Shown one piece after another: positions 2,400-30,573 of a stretch of DNA of 32,000 bases. The notes under the pieces were generated by a model. It had not been told where the DNA came from, made no database searches, and was given only the letters and a program-made list of their open reading frames with translations. Position 1 is the stretch's first letter. Every line of letters begins with the position of its first letter. Source of the DNA: Microcystis aeruginosa NIES-2549 (lineage in GTDB: Bacteria > Cyanobacteriota > Cyanobacteriia > Cyanobacteriales > Microcystaceae); contig NZ_CP011304.1 of the NCBI RefSeq assembly GCF_000981785.2, forward strand, positions 4,020,001-4,052,000. Reading direction: 5' to 3'. A program made the translations under genes and the position numbers.

Positions 2400-2680
2400 C
2401 TCAAAAAAACAGCGATTCATTAACTTTAGTCTATAGTTTGTGAACTGAAGTCACTAACCCCGCCCTAAAAGGGACGGGGTTTGCCTAAACCAATTTAGGC
2501 GACGCAAGTAGAGACTACCGCATCGAGACACAATCTGGCACAGACTTCCGAATACTTCCCTAGTTCGGATTACCTCTCAGCTTTATTGGTAAAGCGTTGT
2601 TAGACAAGACATCTTGATTGTGTTGCGGTAAGGGACTTTAACTTCACTCTTAAGGATTATCTCCATGGCAAGAGTTCCTG
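2400..2680 (+). ncRNA. candidate omega-RNA (HEARO-like) scaffold of the IsrB gene; 5' boundary approximate
   Basis: About 265 nt of non-coding leader lies directly 5' of the IsrB ORF and runs into it, which is the known IscB/IsrB omega-RNA position. Hand-checked pairings: hairpin 2458-2479 (CCCCGCCC/GGGACGGGG), hairpin 2483-2500 (GCCTAAA/TTTAGGC), hairpin 2547-2569 (TCCGAA/TTCGGA) and long-range 2528-2535 (ACACAATC) with 2616-2623 (GATTGTGT). Confidence 0.55.
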
Positions 2681-3762
2681 TTATCTCAAAAGACGGAAAA
2701 CCGTTAATGCCCACCAAACCCAGTCGGGCTAGACGGTGGATTAAGGAAGGAAAAGCTATCGGTAAATTCAACGACTTAGGTATTTTCTATGTCCAGCTAA
2801 CCGATGAACCTTCCGATAGTAAAACCCAACCGATTGCCATTGGTATTGACCCGGGTAAATTATTTTCGGGAATTGGCGTTCAATCCTCTCTTTTTACTCT
2901 TTGGAAGGCTCACTTAGAACTTCCTTTTAAACGAGTAAAAGAGCGGATGGACAATCGGTGCTTAATGCGAAGAGGACGTAGAGGAAGACGGATTAACCGC
3001 CAACTTCCTTTTAATCTAAGAGCGCATCGACAAAAACGATTTTCAAATAGAAGAACAGGAAAATTAGCTCCCTCAATCAGAGCTAATCGTCAACTTGAAC
3101 TTCGAGTCGTTTCCGAACTAACCAAAATCTATCCAATTACCGATATTTATTTTGAGTACATCAAAGCCGATATTGATATAACTTCTGGTAGAAAAGGAGC
3201 TAAGTCTGGAAAAGGTTTCTCGTCGGTTATGGTCGGACAAAAATGGGCTATTGAGCAACTGTCTCAATTGGCAACAGTCCATACTCGCTTTGGTTGGCAA
3301 ACCTCTAATCTCAGAAAGTATTTGCGACTAGAAAAGTCCAAAAATAAAGCAGAACAATCACCCGAAAGTCATGCTAACGATGGAATTGCTCTTGCCTGTT
3401 TTCAGTTTTTAGATTATTGGCCATTTCACAATTCTAATGGTCATGGATATGATTGGAAGGGTTCTGTTAAAGTAACAAACGCTCCCTTTGCTGTCATCAA
3501 ACGTCCTCCTGTTAGTCGTCGTCAACTTCACCTGATGGTTTTTTCTAAGGGTGGTAAACGACGTAAATATGGTGGCTCTACCACAAGACATGGGTTCCGT
3601 AAAGGAGATTTAGTTTCTTCTCCCAAAGGGATTGGTTATGTAAGTGGAGATACCGAAAAACAGCTATCTGTAAGCGATACCAGTTGGAAACGATTGGGAC
3701 AGATAGCTGTTAGTAAGATTCAGTTAATTCGTCGTTCTAACGGTTTAATTGTTTCTCGCTAA
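2665..3762 (+). CDS. isrB: IsrB-type OMEGA RNA-guided nickase (IscB homologue lacking the HNH insert)
   Basis: N-terminal PLMP domain (VISKDGKPLMPTKPSRARRWIKEGKA), RuvC-I IGID62PG and an Arg-rich bridge helix (RRGRRGRRINRQ..RAHRQKRFSNRR..LAPSIRANR). RuvC-II is YFE164YIK and RuvC-III is SH236AND239GIA. The C-terminal GFRKGDLV..GIGYVSG resembles a TAM/target-interaction domain. There is no CxxC/HNH zinc motif, and the 365-aa size fits IsrB. Confidence 0.8.
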   Translation: MARVPVISKDGKPLMPTKPSRARRWIKEGKAIGKFNDLGIFYVQLTDEPSDSKTQPIAIGIDPGKLFSGIGVQSSLFTLWKAHLELPFKRVKERMDNRCLMRRGRRGRRINRQLPFNLRAHRQKRFSNRRTGKLAPSIRANRQLELRVVSELTKIYPITDIYFEYIKADIDITSGRKGAKSGKGFSSVMVGQKWAIEQLSQLATVHTRFGWQTSNLRKYLRLEKSKNKAEQSPESHANDGIALACFQFLDYWPFHNSNGHGYDWKGSVKVTNAPFAVIKRPPVSRRQLHLMVFSKGGKRRKYGGSTTRHGFRKGDLVSSPKGIGYVSGDTEKQLSVSDTSWKRLGQIAVSKIQLIRRSNGLIVSR

Positions 3763-3821
3763 CTCATATAAAGCTGCCCTCCGCTATCGCTAAAGGGCGG
3801 GGTTTCAGACCCATTTTTTCG

Positions 3822-5156
3822 ATGAAAGATAACACCCCCAGAGTAACAAGTCTCAAATCTTATCTTCAGCATTTGCCTCAAGATGCGTCGGAAGCGATCG
3901 TTAGCACCAACTTTGCACCTTACCTGATATCATATTTAGGATTTTCAACCACGGAGATAATTCCACAGTACGACACGGGAGGCGGTGGGATTACCGACTT
4001 TGCCACTCGGAGAAACCTAGAAAACGATATTTTTTTGCAGACAAAGAGTAATCCTTTTCTGCTAATAGAGTTAAAAGGTAGAGATATTAACCTAACTGAA
4101 AATAGTCCAAGTTATAAGGCAACTGTCAATCAGTTAAAGCGTCAGTTATTAGGGAATAACTGTAAAGCAGCCCAATGGGGAATTATCACTAACGGTTCAC
4201 ACATCCAGTTATTTAGAAAACATGGTAAAATCATTTTTCCTGCCACTACTTGCATAGCAATAACTCCTGAGAACATTGATGAGACCGTAGCTCGGATCAA
4301 GACAAAAATTGACAATACTCCCAAAGCATTAACGGTTACTGTTTACAATAATAAAGGCGGTGTAGGCAAAACCACCACAACCGTAAATCTTGCCGCTTTC
4401 CTTGCCTTTTTAGGTAAAAAAGTTTTAGTTTTAGACTTTGATTTTAATCAACGAGATTTAACTAAATCTATCCTAAATATAAACCCAGAAGATGGCCTAC
4501 TAGAAAAGGCTTTAACTGATCGCAATATTGATCTAAAATCAGTGATTATTCCCTATACTTTTAAGAATCCAAAACGACAAATTACCTTCGACGTTGTTCC
4601 TGCTGATCCTAAAATGGCAGACTATCCGGACTTTCAGTATAATTCTCAAATGAAAATATTCACTCTCCATAGAAAATTAGACTTAGCTAGATATGAATAT
4701 GATTACATCTTTATAGATGCAGCTCCCAATTGGCGATTTCCTAGCCAGCTGGCTGTTTATGCTGCTGATGTTGTCCTCTTACCCACAAAACATAACAATT
4801 CATTCTCCCTTCATAATGCAGCTATTGCCATCAAGGAGTTTCTGCCGCCAATGCAAAAATTAAAAAAAGATGGGACTCCCATAGCCTTACCAATTTTTTT
4901 CAACGGTGAGAAGATTACTCAACCACAGTTAGAGATTGCCCAAAAAGAAATTAATCAAATACTAAAAAATGACAAAAACCTTGTACACTATTTTTATCCC
5001 AAATACACTCCTGCCAGTAAAAATTCACATATTCATCACCTGCCAGAATACGCTATTATAGCCAGTGCTGCTTTCGCTCGCGTGCCGGCCGTTTATAAAC
5101 ATATTTCCGTTTATGAGTATTACAAAGACTTAGCAAAGGAGTATTTTTTACAATGA
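3822..5156 (+). CDS. fusion protein: N-terminal HsdR-N-like PD-(D/E)xK nuclease-fold domain plus C-terminal ParA/Soj-type deviant Walker ATPase
   Basis: Residues 1-165 carry D59 (GITDFATR), E83-x-K85 (LLIELKGRD) and the QWGIITNGSHIQLF (TNG) motif. Residues 168-444 carry K178GGVGK183TTT (signature lysine present), VLVLDFDFNQRD and YIFIDAAPN (Walker B). There is a 4-nt ATGA overlap with the next gene. Confidence 0.8.
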   Translation: MKDNTPRVTSLKSYLQHLPQDASEAIVSTNFAPYLISYLGFSTTEIIPQYDTGGGGITDFATRRNLENDIFLQTKSNPFLLIELKGRDINLTENSPSYKATVNQLKRQLLGNNCKAAQWGIITNGSHIQLFRKHGKIIFPATTCIAITPENIDETVARIKTKIDNTPKALTVTVYNNKGGVGKTTTTVNLAAFLAFLGKKVLVLDFDFNQRDLTKSILNINPEDGLLEKALTDRNIDLKSVIIPYTFKNPKRQITFDVVPADPKMADYPDFQYNSQMKIFTLHRKLDLARYEYDYIFIDAAPNWRFPSQLAVYAADVVLLPTKHNNSFSLHNAAIAIKEFLPPMQKLKKDGTPIALPIFFNGEKITQPQLEIAQKEINQILKNDKNLVHYFYPKYTPASKNSHIHHLPEYAIIASAAFARVPAVYKHISVYEYYKDLAKEYFLQ

Positions 5157-5845
5157 TGGAATATACCGATATTGGTACTTTGAAGTATCTCTACTTAGAT
5201 GAAATAGAAATTACCAATGGGACCGATGCTGATAGTTTTTTAATTGAAGTTGCTGCCAAACTATTACAGCAGACAGGTGGACGCAATTGGCTGCCTGTAA
5301 TCGTCAAAGAACTATCAGAGGATCGCTATGAAGTTATCGGCAACTCATTTGTTTATGCTGTGGCTGAAAGGGCTGGACTAGAAAGAATTTGGTGTATTAT
5401 TGCCGATGGAACAGAAGATGCTAGGAATATATCCAGAGTTTTGGCAAGAGAAGAAACCCCAAAACTAAATCTTTCAACAGCTTCAAGAGAAGAAATTAAA
5501 TCTGCTTTACAGTTCTTAATTGAACAACCGAATAGCCCCCTAAAAACAGTTAAATTAGCTACTGCTACTGCTAGGATTGATGAAGCTCCCCGTCAATTCT
5601 GGAAGAGTTTAGATTCAATTGTTGCCCTCAAGTGTGGAATTACAAAAGGGAAGGGATTAGATTTACTCAAAACTGTCTTTTATCTCACTCCTGAATCTCA
5701 ACAAGATGCAGTGATTGAGGAATTTTCAGAAGAAACTCTCAAACTCAAGACTGTTTCCGAATTAAAGACTCTAGCCAAAGAAAAAGGAATCGTTGGTTTA
5801 AGCAAGATGAAGAAAGCAGAGCTAGTCAGAATATTAGCGCAATAA
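5153..5845 (+). CDS. ParB-N-terminal-like (ParB/Srx fold, arginine box degenerate) protein with C-terminal Rho_N/SAP-like motif
   Basis: WLPVIVKELSEDRYEVIGNSFVYAVAERAGLERIWCII resembles the ParB N-domain core, but GERRxR is replaced by GNSFVY. The C-terminus VSELKTLAKEKGIVGLSKMKKAELVRIL matches the Rho_N/SAP helix-extended-helix pattern. Translationally coupled to the upstream ATPase gene. Confidence 0.65.
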   Translation: MMEYTDIGTLKYLYLDEIEITNGTDADSFLIEVAAKLLQQTGGRNWLPVIVKELSEDRYEVIGNSFVYAVAERAGLERIWCIIADGTEDARNISRVLAREETPKLNLSTASREEIKSALQFLIEQPNSPLKTVKLATATARIDEAPRQFWKSLDSIVALKCGITKGKGLDLLKTVFYLTPESQQDAVIEEFSEETLKLKTVSELKTLAKEKGIVGLSKMKKAELVRILAQ

Positions 5846-5871: not shown

Positions 5872-5899
5872 GGAAGTGGGGAAGTGGGGAAGTGGGGAG
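5872..5899. repeat. tandem GAAGTGGGG x3 purine-rich repeat
   Basis: Read directly. Related GGAAGTGG runs occur at 6150-6162 and 17527-17575. Confidence 0.9.
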
Positions 5900-5927
5900 T
5901 ATTTTCAGTGAACAGTAAACAGTCGGG

Positions 5928-6019
5928 GTAGGGTTGATTCATGAATCAACCCTACCTTGAATCAACCCTACCTTGAATCAACCCTACCTTGAATCAACCC
6001 TACCTTGAATCAACCCTAG
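5928..6019. repeat. 28-bp perfect palindrome (5928-5955) continuing into 4.8 tandem copies of the 16-mer GAATCAACCCTACCTT (5943-6019)
   Basis: GTAGGGTTGATTCATGAATCAACCCTAC is self-complementary, and the 16-nt units were counted by hand. A related hairpin GTTGGGTT..AACCCAAC follows at about 6028-6052. Confidence 0.9.
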
Positions 6020-6125
6020 AACGTAGGTTGGGTTGAAGCATGAAACCCAACGCCCGATCATGTTAGGCTACCGCTAACCCATCCTACAAATAATTGTGCC
6101 TCCCTACTTATAACAAATCACTCCA

Positions 6126-6243
6126 GTATCAATTATGAATTATGAGTTAGGAAGTGGGAAGTATTTTCAGTGAACAGTAAACAGTAATCAGTGAACTGAA
6201 AACTCACATCTGATAACTGATAACTGATAACTGATAACTGATT
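6126..6243. repeat. composite dispersed repeat: GGAAGTGG block, then ATTTTCAGTGAACAGTAAACAGTAATCAGTGAACTGAAAACTCAC core, then (CTGATAA)n
   Basis: Near-identical composite at 17525-17650 and a truncated copy at 5855-5923. The heptamer array is at 6210-6243. Confidence 0.85.
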
Positions 6244-7141: not shown

Positions 7142-8755
7142 ATGAATGATTTAAATGAGCGAAAAACATTTGCTTTAACAACACCTCTTTATTATGTCAA
7201 CGATGTCCCTCACATCGGTAGTGCTTACACAACGATCGTAGCGGATGTTATGGCACGATGGAAGCGGTTACAGGGGAATTCTGTCCTCCTAATTACAGGA
7301 ACCGACGAACACGGACAGAAAATCGAACGGACTGCGGCAGCCAAAGGACTCAATCCCCAGGAACACTGCGATCGCATCGCCACCAGTTTTGCCAATCTCT
7401 GGGCCAAGCTACACATCCAGTATGATCGCTTTAGTCGCACCACCGCCCCCCGTCATCAGACAATTGTTAACGAATTTTTTGAAAGAGTCTGGGAAAAAGG
7501 CGATATCTATCTAGATCGCCAACAGGGTTGGTATTGCGTCGCCTGTGAAGAATTTAAGGAAAAAAGAGAACTGTTAGATAATGGCTGTTGTCCCATTCAT
7601 ACTAATCTGGCCGCCGAATGGCGCGACGAGGAAAACTATTTTTTCCGTCTCTCTAAATATCAGACGCAACTAGAACAACTTTACCAAGAGCAACCCGATT
7701 TTATTCAACCGGAAAGCCGACGTAATGAGGTCCTCAACTTCGTCAACCAAGGACTACAGGACTTCTCCATCTCTAGGGTTAATGTGGCTTGGGGGTTTCC
7801 CATTCCCCACGATGGCAAGCATACCATCTACGTTTGGTTTGATGCCCTTCTTGGCTATGTTACCGCCCTTCTCGACCCCGAAGACGAACCCACCCTAGAA
7901 AATGCCTTGGCCAAATGGTGGCCGATCGATCTGCATCTGATCGGTAAAGATATATTAAGATTCCATGCCATTTATTGGCCGGCTATGCTAATGTCGGCGG
8001 GTTTACCCTTGCCTAAAAGAGTCTTCGGCCATGGCTTTTTGACCAAAGACGGGCGGAAAATGGGCAAAAGTCTCGGTAATACCCTCGATCCCTTCGATTT
8101 AGTTGAGCGCTACGGGGCCGATGCCGTCCGTTACTATTTCGTCAAAGAGATTGAATTAGGACAGGATGGCGATTTTCAGGAAACCAGATTTGTTAATATT
8201 CTTAACGCAGATTTAGCCAACGATTTAGGCAACCTCCTCAATCGCACCCTAGGCATGGTTAAAAAATACTGCCAAAATAACCCCCCCCAGTTGACCGGTG
8301 TAGATATCCCCAACGATAATCACCTTAAGAATATGGGGATCAATTTAGGGGGCATTGTTGAACAGAAGTACGATGCGCTACAATTTAATCAAGCCTGTGA
8401 GGAAATATTGGCGTTAATTCGTGCTAGTAATAAGTTTATCGATGAGAGTGCGCCCTGGAGTTTATTTAAACAGAAACAACAAGCAGCGGTAGAACAAGTC
8501 CTCTACGCAGTTTTGGAATCAGTAAGACTCTCTGCCTACCTACTTTCACCGATAATACCGACCTTGAGCAGTAAAATTTATCAACAACTGGGTTTTGTTA
8601 TTGATTTTAATACTTTCAGGTCGGAGGACGGAGAAAACTCCCCTGATGGTGTCTCTTTTTCCCAACACTGTCAATGGGGATTACCCACAAATCCACAACT
8701 AGGAACACCTGAACCGATCTTTTCTAAACTAGAACTGCCGTTAAACGATTCCTAA
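7142..8755 (+). CDS. metG: methionine--tRNA ligase
   Basis: Class I HIGH motif (PHIGSAYT), KMSKS-type motif (KMGKSLGN), Zn knuckle (CVACEEF..CCPIH) and the WFDALLGY signature. Confidence 0.95.
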   Translation: MNDLNERKTFALTTPLYYVNDVPHIGSAYTTIVADVMARWKRLQGNSVLLITGTDEHGQKIERTAAAKGLNPQEHCDRIATSFANLWAKLHIQYDRFSRTTAPRHQTIVNEFFERVWEKGDIYLDRQQGWYCVACEEFKEKRELLDNGCCPIHTNLAAEWRDEENYFFRLSKYQTQLEQLYQEQPDFIQPESRRNEVLNFVNQGLQDFSISRVNVAWGFPIPHDGKHTIYVWFDALLGYVTALLDPEDEPTLENALAKWWPIDLHLIGKDILRFHAIYWPAMLMSAGLPLPKRVFGHGFLTKDGRKMGKSLGNTLDPFDLVERYGADAVRYYFVKEIELGQDGDFQETRFVNILNADLANDLGNLLNRTLGMVKKYCQNNPPQLTGVDIPNDNHLKNMGINLGGIVEQKYDALQFNQACEEILALIRASNKFIDESAPWSLFKQKQQAAVEQVLYAVLESVRLSAYLLSPIIPTLSSKIYQQLGFVIDFNTFRSEDGENSPDGVSFSQHCQWGLPTNPQLGTPEPIFSKLELPLNDS

Positions 8756-9485: not shown

Positions 9486-9510
9486 AAGGTGGGTAATTCC
9501 CACCTTTTTC
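9486..9510 (+). terminator. Rho-independent terminator after the NYN gene
   Basis: AAGGTGGG (9486-9493) / CCCACCTT (9499-9506), an 8-bp stem with a 5-nt loop, followed by a T run. Confidence 0.6.
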
Positions 9511-9584
9511 AGTTATCAGTTATCAGTTATCAGTTATCAGTTAGCAGTTATCAGTTATCAGTTATCAGTTAGCAGTTATCAGTG
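9510..9584. repeat. (CAGTTAT)n heptamer tandem array, about 10 units with CAGTTAG variants
   Basis: Read directly. The same heptamer (or its complement CTGATAA) forms arrays at 6210-6243, 17625-17650 and 30471-30523. Confidence 0.9.
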
Positions 9585-17494: not shown

Positions 17495-17524
17495 GGGAAA
17501 AAGTAAAAAAGCAGATTAGGGGTT

Positions 17525-17650
17525 GGGGAAGTGGGAAATGGAGAAGTGAGGAAGTGGAGAAGTGGGGAGATTTTATCAGTGAACAGTGAACGGTAAACAG
17601 TAATCAGTGAACTGAAAACTCACCTCTGATAACTGATAACTTATAACTGA
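17525..17650. repeat. composite dispersed repeat (GGAAGTGG-type block, CAGTGAAC core, (CTGATAA)n), a copy of 6126-6243
   Basis: Direct comparison by eye. The core ...CAGTGAACAGT(G/A)AAC(GGT)AAACAGTAATCAGTGAACTGAAAACTCAC(C/A)TCTGATAACTGATAAC is shared. Confidence 0.85.
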
Positions 17651-30470: not shown

Positions 30471-30523
30471 CTTATCAGTTATCAGTTATCAGCTATCAGT
30501 TATCAGTGAGCAGTGAGCAGTGA
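30471..30523. repeat. (CAGTTAT)n / CAGTGAG heptamer array
   Basis: Read directly; same family as 9510-9584. Confidence 0.9.
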
Positions 30524-30573
30524 TTAATTCAATCATAGTCGATGGTGGTGGGTTACTGGACTAGGTAATAGGT

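What the first reader, a model, noticed from the sequence alone, without database searches (positions are those of the whole stretch)
3822..5845. Unrecognised two-gene module: PD-(D/E)xK nuclease-ParA ATPase fusion plus degenerate ParB-like/Rho_N protein
The two genes are translationally coupled by an ATGA overlap at 5153-5156.

Gene 1 (444 aa) has two parts. Residues 1-165 show the hallmarks of an HsdR-N-type PD-(D/E)xK restriction-endonuclease fold: D59 in GITDFATR, E83-x-K85 in LLIELKGRD, then QWGIITNGSHIQLF. The rest is a complete ParA/Soj deviant-Walker ATPase: K178GGVGK183TT with the signature lysine, a VLVLDFDFNQRD A' box and a YIFIDAAPN Walker B.

Gene 2 (230 aa) opens with a ParB-N/Srx-like core (WLPVIVKELSEDRYEVIGNSFVYAVAERAGLERIWCII). 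The CTP-binding GERRxR arginine box is replaced by GNSFVY. It ends in a Rho_N/SAP-like nucleic-acid-binding motif (VSELKTLAKEKGIVGLSKMKKAELVRIL).

Canonical chromosome or plasmid ParA proteins carry no nuclease-fold domain, and canonical ParB keeps the arginine box and a central HTH. The architecture therefore reads as an ATPase-gated nuclease with a ParB-derived sensor or adaptor, that is, a candidate defence, exclusion or addiction module rather than a segregation system.

The context supports accessory status. The pair sits 59 nt downstream of an IsrB element. Spot counts show it is AT-rich: 18/60 GC at 4441-4500 and 17/60 at 4921-4980, against 35/60 at 7321-7380 in metG. It is wedged between conserved housekeeping genes. 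I cannot match it to any named defence or partition system from memory.
Basis: partly seen in the sequence, partly recalled or inferred. Interest (0 to 1): 0.82.

Follow-up and report, generated by a model that had tools for sequence, protein, structure and literature searches.

The report
Nuclease-fused ParA with ParB-like partner
This Microcystis gene pair belongs to an undescribed family found widely in cyanobacteria, in which a DNA-partition-type ATPase is fused to a restriction-type nuclease domain and paired with a stripped-down ParB-like DNA-binding protein; what it does is still unknown.

Summary
Gene 1 (3822-5156) is an HsdR-N-type PD-(D/E)xK domain fused to a complete ParA/Soj ATPase. 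Gene 2 (5153-5845), joined by an ATGA overlap, has a ParB/Srx fold without the arginine box, a ParB-like helical module and a Rho_N tail.

The pair is not a Microcystis oddity. The same operon was found in 156 cyanobacterial species, with gene 1 directly upstream in 76 of 80 loci inspected. It also sits on 8 cyanobacterial plasmids, and in divergent form in the Candidatus Synechococcus spongiarum clade. The fused ATPase occurs alone in Leptospira.

D59, E83, K85, Q129 and the Walker motifs survive below 30% identity. No third gene is linked. Neighbours are not defence islands, PADLOC has no match, and no shared centromere site was found. The pair is AT-richer than its flanks in 67 of 67 loci, by up to 19 points.

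The IsrB adjacency is a strain-specific insertion at gene 1's start codon.

Best reading (about 0.4): a self-contained, partly mobile ParAB-derived cassette in which the ATP switch gates a nuclease and the ParB-like protein is its DNA-bound regulator, serving replicon maintenance or conflict. A true type-Ia-like partition system (about 0.3) is not excluded.

The parts
3822..5156 (+). Gene 1, 444 aa: PD-(D/E)xK domain fused to a ParA/Soj ATPase
   Evidence: ORF. Pfam AAA_31 8.5e-29 and HSDR_N_2 1.5e-4. AlphaFold2 model with pLDDT 90.5 and pTM 0.91.
3822..4316 (+). N-terminal HsdR-N-type PD-(D/E)xK domain (residues 1-165) with D59, E83-x-K85, G120, N124 and Q129
   Evidence: 17 of 19 family members hit HSDR_N_2, best 5.9e-8. 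The motif residues are near-invariant in 58 representatives at <=50% identity, and kept in the plasmid, Ca. Synechococcus spongiarum-clade and Leptospira subfamilies. The predicted alpha-beta-beta-beta-alpha-beta order places D59 on strand 57-62 and E83/K85 on strand 80-84.
4317..5153 (+). ParA/Soj deviant-Walker ATPase domain (residues 166-444): K178GGVGK183TT, D205/D207 A' box, D299 Walker B
   Evidence: Foldseek top hits are H. pylori Soj at 1.3e-15, T. thermophilus Soj, Cyanothece McdA and pNOB8 ParA. The Walker-box columns G179, G180, K183, T184, D205, D207 and D299 are invariant; K178 is kept in 56 of 59 sequences.
4602..4661 (+). Hypervariable surface patch of gene 1 (residues 261-280) among Microcystis alleles
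   Evidence: Mean column entropy is 0.81, against 0.03-0.39 in the other 20-residue windows. 28 variants of residues 256-285 occur among 114 sequences, dominated by a few recurring types.
5153..5156 (+). ATGA stop/start overlap (translational coupling)
   Evidence: Sequence. The same end-to-start overlap is seen in 60 of the 80 scan loci.
5153..5845 (+). Gene 2, 230 aa: ParB-like protein
   Evidence: ORF. AlphaFold2 pLDDT 84.9. Foldseek hits to Noc, ParB and KorB at 5e-6 to 6e-4, then PadC and sulfiredoxin.
5174..5446 (+). ParB/Srx-like N-terminal domain (about residues 8-98); GNSFVY stands where the GERRxR arginine box would be
   Evidence: Pfam ParB_N 0.0072 over residues 48-90. Invariant N45, W46, P48, K52, N64, F66, W80, C81 and D85. 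Fold match to Srx and ParB N-domains.
5462..5692 (+). Central helical module (about residues 104-180; 'LKCGITKG' turn), aligned by Foldseek with the ParB DNA-binding region. It is duplicated or triplicated in some homologues.
   Evidence: 2-3 profile matches per protein in Trichodesmium, Dapis, Okeania, pREB8 and Ca. Synechococcus spongiarum-clade partners.
5738..5836 (+). C-terminal Rho_N / SAP / HeH-like helix-extended-helix motif (residues 196-228)
   Evidence: Pfam Rho_N 2.6e-6, with weak SAP and HeH hits. Profile hit to Rho N-termini in the PDB.

Best explanation
The pair is one member of an undescribed two-gene cassette derived from ParA-ParB.

Shown:
- Gene 1 joins an HsdR-N-type PD-(D/E)xK domain, with a conserved D...ExK...Q motif, to a complete ParA ATP switch.
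- Gene 2 is a ParB-fold protein with a helical ParB-like module and a Rho_N/SAP tail, but without the CTP-binding arginine box.
- The two genes are always adjacent, usually overlapping, and co-evolve.
- No other gene is linked.
- The cassette sits at different chromosomal sites in different genera and on some plasmids, and keeps its own AT-rich composition whatever the host.

Inferred:
- ATP binding dimerises the ParA domains on DNA, as in Soj/ParA, and brings two nuclease domains together, so that DNA cleavage (or tight DNA engagement) is gated by the nucleotide state.
- The ParB-like protein is bound to DNA through its helical modules and tail. It is the partner that turns the ATPase over and so restrains or directs the nuclease.
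- The cassette would then serve its own replicon (maintenance, addiction or exclusion of competing DNA). It would be neither an ordinary host chromosome segregation system nor an island-borne anti-phage system.
For: - Architecture and folds.
- The putative catalytic and Walker residues are kept in every subfamily, down to under 30% identity. That argues for a working active site, not a relic.
- Strict pairing: gene 1 lies directly upstream of gene 2 in 76 of 80 loci. Pairwise identities of the two genes correlate, r=0.84.
- Self-contained: only the two families recur among 992 flanking ORFs.
- Mobile-like behaviour: there is no shared synteny between genera. The pair is AT-richer than its flanks in 67 of 67 loci (mean -6.7 points), and -18 to -20 points in 62-63% GC flanks. 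GC3 of genes 1 and 2 is 33% and 28%, against 46% for metG.
- Identity clusters only partly follow taxonomy.
- The pair is carried on 8 plasmids, and on one IMG/VR contig with Rad52 and ImmA genes.
- Most of the larger plasmids carrying it also have canonical ParA/ParB or ParM systems, so it is not needed there as the sole partition system.
- Gene 1 is frameshifted, truncated or absent beside an intact gene 2 in 6 of 80 loci. This is the decay order expected of a harmful effector and its restrainer, but the scan was seeded on gene 2.
Against: - Nuclease activity, ATP gating and a gene 1-gene 2 interaction are all untested.
- I could not run a fold search on the N-domain alone. The window protein scores 22-24 bits on HSDR_N_2, just under Pfam's cut-off.
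- The pair is fixed at one locus in all Microcystis species scanned. Gene 2 is 96-99% identical within the genus and 53-61% identical in most other cyanobacterial lineages, which looks more like a host function than a selfish element.
- On the 12.5-kb Pseudanabaena plasmid it is the only par-like system annotated.
- No integrase or transposase travels with the chromosomal copies, so the means of movement is unknown.
Confidence: 0.4

Rival explanations
1. It is a genuine partition or DNA-positioning system of type-Ia-like design. The large ParA binds the nucleoid in the ATP form, and the ParB-like protein binds a centromere-like site and stimulates the ATPase. The PD-(D/E)xK domain replaces the N-terminal winged-helix domain of P1 ParA/SopA as a sequence-specific DNA-binding or autoregulatory module, and may not cut DNA.
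For: - Both proteins are ParA and ParB homologues, in parA-parB order with coupling.
- P1 ParA and V. cholerae ParA2 align over more columns than Soj does (357 and 336 against about 280), which is consistent with an N-terminal extension.
- The pair lies on 8 cyanobacterial plasmids.
- Three plasmids of one Nostoc strain each carry their own divergent copy, as incompatibility would favour.
- It is the only par-like genes on the 12.5-kb CyRepA1 plasmid.
- 8-bp-phased repeat arrays lie just downstream of the pair on that plasmid and on A. marina pREB8.
- 21-bp tandem arrays lie upstream of gene 1 in two chromosomal loci.
Against: - The strictly conserved D/ExK/Q set is not explained by mere DNA binding.
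- The ParB arginine box is absent.
- No shared palindrome or repeat was found within 500 bp of the pair across about 60 chromosomal loci.
- The Microcystis downstream repeats vary between strains, and the GGAAGTGG unit recurs elsewhere in the window.
- Most carrier plasmids have other par systems. The pREB8 array also sits upstream of a small type-Ib-like ParA, to which it may belong.
- Only 8 of 72,556 PLSDB plasmids carry it.
Confidence: 0.3
2. It is a conventional anti-phage or anti-plasmid defence system. The ParB-like protein senses invading DNA and the ATPase-nuclease destroys it or the host genome.
For: - A nuclease plus an ATPase switch is a common defence design. ParB/Srx-fold sensors occur in GmrSD, SspE and DndB (my own knowledge).
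- The AT-rich composition.
- A hypervariable patch in gene 1 among Microcystis alleles.
Against: - No PADLOC model matches beyond the P-loop.
- Among 115 immediate neighbours no PADLOC model matched more than three proteins; the best-scoring, DndA/SspA, came with two Aminotran_5 hits and I read them as ordinary aminotransferases. 139 different Pfam families are present, none in more than 3 neighbours.
- In the 9 Microcystis species genomes recovered by the gene-2 scan the pair sits at a shared locus; gene 2 is 96-99% identical among them.
- It is absent from phage genomes.
Confidence: 0.12
3. It is a host DNA-metabolism function of cyanobacteria, such as processing, repair, recombination or turnover of the multi-copy chromosomes. 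A nucleoid-bound ParA would deliver a nuclease to sites set by the ParB-like protein.
For: - Broad distribution in cyanobacteria, including 2.1-Mb Ca. Synechococcus spongiarum-clade genomes where housekeeping genes flank it.
- A fixed locus in Microcystis.
- The literature states that cyanobacteria lack a classical ParABS segregation mechanism, and that chromosome spacing in polyploid strains is unexplained (PMC7766704; bioRxiv 10.1101/661256).
Against: - The strong compositional mismatch with every host, variable loci and plasmid carriage are unusual for an ancient host function.
- The pair is disrupted in some genomes.
- No link to repair or replication genes was seen in the neighbourhoods.
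Confidence: 0.13

Closest known systems
Type Ia plasmid partition systems (P1 ParA/ParB, F SopA/SopB)
   Same: A large ParA with an N-terminal extension ahead of the Walker domain. The partner has a ParB/Srx N-domain followed by a helical DNA-binding region. The order is parA-parB in one operon. The ParA region aligns with models for SopA, RepA and PrgP. P1 ParA (3ez2) aligns over 357 columns.
   Different: The N-terminal extension is a PD-(D/E)xK domain with an intact catalytic motif, not a winged helix. The partner lacks the GERRxR CTP-binding box and carries a Rho_N/SAP tail where ParB has its C-terminal dimerisation domain (my own knowledge for the ParB side). No centromere was identified. 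NCBIfam scores are far below every family cut-off.
Chromosomal Soj/Spo0J and Noc
   Same: These are the best structural matches of both proteins: H. pylori and T. thermophilus Soj at 1e-15 to 1e-12, and Noc and ParB at about 5e-6.
   Different: Sequence identity is only 15-25%. Soj has no nuclease domain. Spo0J and Noc are CTP-dependent clamps with the arginine box.
HsdR nuclease domain of type I restriction enzymes (Pfam HSDR_N, HSDR_N_2)
   Same: The same motif layout, D...ExK then G..TNG..Q. In both cases a nuclease domain is fused to an ATPase.
   Different: The ATPase here is a ParA dimerisation switch, not an SF2 translocase. No methyltransferase or specificity subunit is nearby.
McdA/McdB carboxysome positioning system of cyanobacteria
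   Same: A cyanobacterial ParA-type ATPase with an adjacent dedicated partner. Cyanothece McdA is among the top fold matches.
   Different: McdB is a small disordered protein unrelated to ParB (PMC7182216). McdA has no nuclease domain. No carboxysome gene neighbours the pair.
PADLOC candidate PDC-M28B
   Same: It is the only defence-library hit. It is a ParA-like P-loop protein whose model also has about 120 positions ahead of the P-loop.
   Different: The match covers only residues 163-230, the P-loop region. There is no match to the nuclease domain or to gene 2.

Membership tests
ParA/Soj (deviant Walker A) ATPases | KGGxxK[ST] with the signature lysine, an A' box aspartate and a Walker B aspartate | tested here: met
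   K178GGVGK183TT, D205/D207 and D299. G179, G180, K183, T184, D205, D207 and D299 are invariant across the alignments; K178 is kept in 56 of 59.
ParA/Soj (deviant Walker A) ATPases | Soj-like fold | tested here: met
   Foldseek hit to 6iub at E 1.3e-15 with target TM 0.78; many Soj, ParA, McdA and MinD hits.
ParA/Soj (deviant Walker A) ATPases | ATP-dependent dimerisation and non-specific DNA binding | not testable with these tools
   Needs biochemistry.
ParABS partition locus | ParB with the CTP-binding arginine box (GERRxR / GxxRxxA) | tested here: not met
   GNSF(V/I)Y at that position in all 20-52 aligned homologues.
ParABS partition locus | ParB N-domain fold followed by a DNA-binding helical domain | tested here: met
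   Foldseek hits to Noc, ParB and KorB over 177-246 columns, probability 1.0. Pfam ParB_N is only 0.0072.
ParABS partition locus | Centromere-like repeats or palindromes next to the operon | tested here: inconclusive
   No motif is shared across about 60 chromosomal loci. Octamer arrays lie downstream on 2 of 8 plasmids. Sites could lie elsewhere in the genome.
ParABS partition locus | Linkage to replication functions on plasmids | tested here: inconclusive
   8 plasmids carry it. On one small CyRepA1 plasmid it is the sole par-like system. On others it sits with ParA/ParB or ParM systems. Most copies are chromosomal.
PD-(D/E)xK nucleases, HsdR-N type | Profile match to HSDR_N / HSDR_N_2 | tested here: met
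   The window protein scores 22.3-24.1 bits (cut-off 25). 17 of 19 homologues match HSDR_N_2 (best 5.9e-8) and 8 of 19 match HSDR_N.
PD-(D/E)xK nucleases, HsdR-N type | Conserved D...(D/E)xK catalytic motif on the second and third core strands | tested here: met
   D59 in 58 of 59 sequences, E83 in 56 of 59, K85 in 57 of 59, Q129 in 53 of 59. The motif is kept in all subfamilies. Strand positions are from the AlphaFold2 model.
PD-(D/E)xK nucleases, HsdR-N type | Fold match of the isolated domain to solved nucleases; nuclease activity | not tested
Activity needs an assay.
Known anti-phage defence systems (PADLOC-DB 2.0) | Match of the system's proteins to a defence model | tested here: not met
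   Gene 1 matches only the P-loop part of PDC-M28B. Gene 2 has no match.
Known anti-phage defence systems (PADLOC-DB 2.0) | Enrichment next to defence genes | tested here: not met
   Among 115 flanking proteins from 33 loci, hits are few and not recurrent. Pfam content is heterogeneous.
Toxin-antitoxin / addiction modules | Toxicity of one product neutralised by the other | not testable with these tools
   There are only indirect hints: a two-gene coupled cassette, variable loci, and gene 1 decayed beside an intact gene 2 in 6 of 80 loci (the scan was seeded on gene 2).

The most novel reading that the evidence does not exclude
A new class of DNA-targeting conflict or addiction module built from partition parts. 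A ParA ATP-dimerisation switch gates a restriction-type nuclease on DNA. A CTP-less ParB-like protein, loaded on the cassette's own replicon, keeps the nuclease off. DNA or cells that lack the partner are then cut. The module is widespread in cyanobacteria and spreads as a free-standing AT-rich two-gene cassette.
Probability: 0.25. Interest if true: 0.85.

Novelty: new variant of a known kind. Interest (0 to 1): 0.62.

Why it matters
ParA/ParB systems are known as machines that position DNA and other cargo. A family in which the ParA is fused to a nuclease with a conserved catalytic motif, and the ParB has lost its CTP switch, would extend that machinery to DNA cutting or to a new kind of replicon maintenance.

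The family is widespread in cyanobacteria, including the bloom-forming Microcystis and the model strain Nostoc punctiforme PCC 73102. [quoted passage not shown] The library papers I read say that cyanobacteria lack a classical ParABS segregation mechanism and that the basis of chromosome spacing is unknown. This pair is therefore a concrete, testable candidate whichever explanation holds. Its constant AT-rich composition in hosts with flanks of 30 to 63% GC is an unexplained puzzle in its own right.

Tried and rejected
- PDB sequence-profile searches with the N-domain (A5) and gene 2 (A4) gave only chance hits, apart from Rho N-termini.
- The whole-protein Foldseek search of gene 1 returned only ParA-type hits, so the N-domain fold could not be compared on its own. 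The BFVD viral library held no two-domain analogue.
- Phage genomes have no homologue of either the N-domain or gene 2. IMG/VR gave one plasmid-like contig.
- The k-mer, palindrome, tandem-repeat and GTAAC-pattern searches found no shared cis site near the chromosomal pairs. I rejected the repeats downstream of gene 2 in the window as a centromere. Their units differ between Microcystis strains, and the GGAAGTGG unit recurs at 17524-17568.
- The conserved block upstream of gene 1 in Nostocales reads as a lineage-specific promoter and 5' region, not as a repeat.
- Literature searches found no description of the pair. A reported parA/parB pair of Synechococcus PCC 7002 (A0432/A0433; deleting parA gave no phenotype) could not be checked for membership.
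- I first took the low-GC Tara contigs to be Prochlorococcus.
Full report
**Observation.** The window is from Microcystis: gene 1 is 87-98% identical to Microcystis proteins. ORFs 3822..5156 (444 aa) and 5153..5845 (230 aa) lie on the + strand and overlap in ATGA at 5153-5156.

Pfam gives gene 1 AAA_31 at 8.5e-29 (residues 171-331) and HSDR_N_2 at 1.5e-4 (residues 30-133; 22.3 bits against a cut-off of 25). It gives gene 2 Rho_N at 2.6e-6 (residues 196-228) and ParB_N at 0.0072. NCBIfam offers only far sub-threshold ParA-type matches. PADLOC matches only the P-loop region to PDC-M28B and gives nothing for gene 2.

**The nuclease-like domain.** I aligned 58 full-length representatives taken from clusters at 50% identity. 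D59 is kept in 58 of 59 sequences, E83 in 56, K85 in 57, G120 in 59, N124 in 56 and Q129 in 53. The Walker A residues G179, G180, K183 and T184 are kept in all 59, and K178 in 56.

- Of 19 diverse N-domains scanned alone, 17 hit HSDR_N_2 (best 5.9e-8) and 8 hit HSDR_N.
- The same D...ExK...G..N..Q set and the Walker boxes survive in the most distant subfamilies: plasmid-borne, Ca. Synechococcus spongiarum-clade and Leptospira.
- The AlphaFold2 model is confident (pLDDT 90.5, pTM 0.91). It shows the helix, three strands, helix, strand order of the PD-(D/E)xK core, with D59 on strand 57-62 and E83/K85 on strand 80-84.
- I could not run a fold search on this domain alone. The whole-protein search returned only ParA-type hits.

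**The ATPase.** The top Foldseek matches are H. pylori Soj (1.3e-15), T. thermophilus Soj, Cyanothece McdA and pNOB8 ParA. The type Ia proteins P1 ParA and V. cholerae ParA2 align over more columns, 357 and 336.

**The partner.** The gene 2 model (pLDDT 84.9) matches Noc, ParB and KorB at 5e-6 to 6e-4 over 177-246 columns, then PadC and sulfiredoxin. It therefore has both the ParB/Srx N-domain and a helical region aligned with the ParB DNA-binding region.

- The arginine box is GNSF(V/I)Y in every homologue.
- The central module (about residues 104-180, with an invariant 'KCGITKG'-type turn) is duplicated in Trichodesmium, Dapis, Okeania and pREB8. It is present in two or three copies in Ca. 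Synechococcus spongiarum-clade partners.

**Distribution.**
- Gene 2 homologues are 53-61% identical in most other cyanobacterial lineages scanned, including Nostocales, Leptolyngbya, Microcoleus, Lyngbya and Pleurocapsales, up to 71% in the closest relatives, on multi-megabase contigs.
- A scan of one genome per species found 156 species, all cyanobacteria.
- In the 80 loci kept, gene 1 lies directly upstream in 76, with the same overlap in 60.
- Nostoc punctiforme PCC 73102 and Anabaena PCC 7108 have the pair.
- Clustering 992 flanking ORFs shows that only these two families recur. There is no third linked gene.
- Pairwise identities of the two genes correlate, r=0.84.
- Divergent pairs, with an ATPase of 474-503 aa and a partner of 313-408 aa, occur in Ca. 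Synechococcus spongiarum-clade genomes among housekeeping genes, and on unidentified low-GC marine contigs.
- Leptospira species carry the fused ATPase without a ParB-like neighbour.

**Context in Microcystis.** Most of the other Microcystis species genomes recovered (5-6 of the 9) show the same flanking genes (NDH-2-like, GAF, pair, acyltransferase-like, metG). In the three aligned (L003, L004, L007) gene 1's ATG directly follows the native 5' region. In this window an element of about 1.4 kb is inserted between that 5' region and the ATG. The element consists of a HEARO-type RNA at 2450-2642 (E 3.7e-5, below the gathering score) and the RRXRR ORF at 2665-3762. The IsrB adjacency is therefore incidental and may disturb expression of the pair in this strain.

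**Is it a defence-island gene?** I scanned 115 immediate neighbours from 33 diverse loci. They hold 139 Pfam families, none in more than three proteins. PADLOC hits are few and not recurrent; the highest-scoring, DndA/SspA, coincide with two Aminotran_5 hits and I take them to be ordinary aminotransferases. Phage genomes lack both parts.

**Is it a partition locus?** PLSDB holds the pair on eight cyanobacterial plasmids:
- three plasmids of Nostoc sp. UHCC 0870;
- A. marina pREB8;
- L. boryana pLBA, in two strains;
- Pseudanabaena pPg_01;
- the 12.5-kb Pseudanabaena plasmid ABRG53g.

On ABRG53g it is the only par-like system annotated, beside a CyRepA1 replication gene. An array of 8-bp GTAACAG repeats lies downstream. 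pREB8 has a 750-bp array of GTAAG/GTAAC octamers after the pair, but that array also precedes a small ParA operon. Five of the plasmids (pREB8, pPg_01 and the three Nostoc UHCC 0870 plasmids) carry additional ParA, ParB or ParM systems.

Around the chromosomal copies I found no shared k-mer, palindrome or repeat. The repeats after gene 2 in the window (5872-6242) differ in unit between Microcystis strains, and the GGAAGTGG unit recurs at 17524-17568.

**Composition.** Genes 1 and 2 are 37.3% and 38.0% GC, with GC3 of 33% and 28%. The window is 43.8% GC, and metG is 45.2% with GC3 of 46%. This is general:
- The pair is AT-richer than its flanks in 67 of 67 loci, mean -6.7 points.
- It is 18-20 points lower in flanks of 62-63% GC.
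- It is 2-5 points higher in flanks of about 30-33% GC.

The cassette thus stays at roughly 32-46% GC whatever the host. Identity clusters follow taxonomy only in part. For example, a Leptolyngbya MAG groups with Nostoc at over 75% identity, Nostocales split into two groups, and Microcystis groups with Microcoleus.

Gene 1 is split, truncated or missing next to an intact gene 2 in 6 of 80 loci. The scan was seeded on gene 2, and some of these loci are MAGs.

Within Microcystis, gene 1 is 87-96% identical to the window protein in the species genomes scanned (87-98% across database clusters) and gene 2 is 96-99% identical. Gene 1 has a hypervariable patch at residues 261-280 dominated by a few recurring variants.

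**Interpretation.** The anatomy is established. The function is not. The conserved catalytic motif, the free-standing two-gene structure, the foreign-like composition in every host, the varying insertion sites and the occasional plasmid carriage together favour a ParAB-derived cassette. In that reading the ATP switch gates a nuclease, the ParB-like protein regulates it, and the cassette acts for its own replicon (maintenance, addiction or exclusion). I put this at about 0.4.

A real type-Ia-like partition or positioning system, with the PD-(D/E)xK domain as a DNA-binding module, remains a serious rival at about 0.3. The plasmid data are the reason. A classical anti-phage system (about 0.12) fits the context data poorly. 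A host DNA-metabolism role (about 0.13) fits the composition and mobility data poorly.

**Literature and novelty.** Full-text searches found no description of this pair. The library papers state that cyanobacteria lack a classical ParABS mechanism (PMC7766704). A PCC 7002 parA deletion had no phenotype (bioRxiv 10.1101/661256), but I could not test whether those genes belong to this family.

I rate the pair as a new variant of a known kind: ParA/ParB-type systems with a fused restriction-type nuclease and a CTP-less ParB.

Noticed in passing
window 2445-3821: An IscB/IsrB-type (OMEGA) element: a HEARO-like RNA at 2450-2642 (E 3.7e-5, full model length, below the gathering score) followed by the RRXRR ORF at 2665-3762 and a terminator-like hairpin at 3800-3812. 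It is inserted between gene 1's native 5' region and its ATG, and is absent at this site in the three other Microcystis genomes aligned.
   Followed up: partly
window 5872-6242; also 9509-9583, 17524-17650, 30472-30524: Intergenic short tandem repeat arrays with 7-, 8- and 16-bp units. The array after gene 2 changes its unit between Microcystis strains (TATGAAT, AATTATC, GGAAGTGG, CAGTAAA, AACTGAT). The GGAAGTGG unit recurs at 17524-17568.
   Followed up: partly
67 related loci; L092, L095: The pair keeps about 32-46% GC in hosts whose flanks range from 30 to 63% GC. It is AT-richer than its flanks in 67 of 67 loci, and 18-20 points lower in Ca. Synechococcus spongiarum-clade genomes. No explanation has been established.
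   Followed up: partly
window 4602-4661 and 4962-5027: Gene 1 has variable patches (residues 261-280 and 381-402) dominated by a few recurring variants among Microcystis strains, while gene 2 is nearly invariant in the genus.
   Followed up: partly
L098 411-713; L085 7073-7822: 8-bp-phased repeat arrays (GTAACAG/GTAACGG units; GTAAGT/GTAACT units) lie downstream of the pair on Pseudanabaena plasmid ABRG53g and on A. marina pREB8. They may be centromeres or operators. In pREB8 the array may instead belong to the next, small ParA operon.
   Followed up: partly
L017 and L051, within 600 bp upstream of gene 1: 21-bp tandem arrays (5.7 and 7.1 copies, different units) lie upstream of the gene 1 homologue in two unrelated cyanobacterial genomes.
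   Followed up: no
L045, L056, L057, L071, L073, L078: The gene 1 homologue is split by a frameshift, truncated or missing while gene 2 is intact. This may be assembly error in MAGs, or decay of the effector first.
   Followed up: partly
L090 5001-6987 (Leptospira bandrabouensis): A fused HSDR_N-ParA ATPase (438 aa, about 30% identical) occurs without a ParB-like partner. It is followed by a LOR-domain gene and lies near a Fic-domain gene.
   Followed up: no
L001, L025-L027, L032-L035, L041, L044 (Nostocales), -50 to -1 of gene 1: A conserved upstream block, ATAATTGTC..GGGAACACTAGACT..GCTGGAAG, lies directly before the start codon. It is probably a lineage-specific promoter and 5' leader.
   Followed up: partly
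L096 (IMG/VR contig) and L086 (L. boryana pLBA): On mobile-element copies the pair lies near a Rad52/Rad22-family gene and HTH or ImmA/IrrE-type regulators.
   Followed up: no
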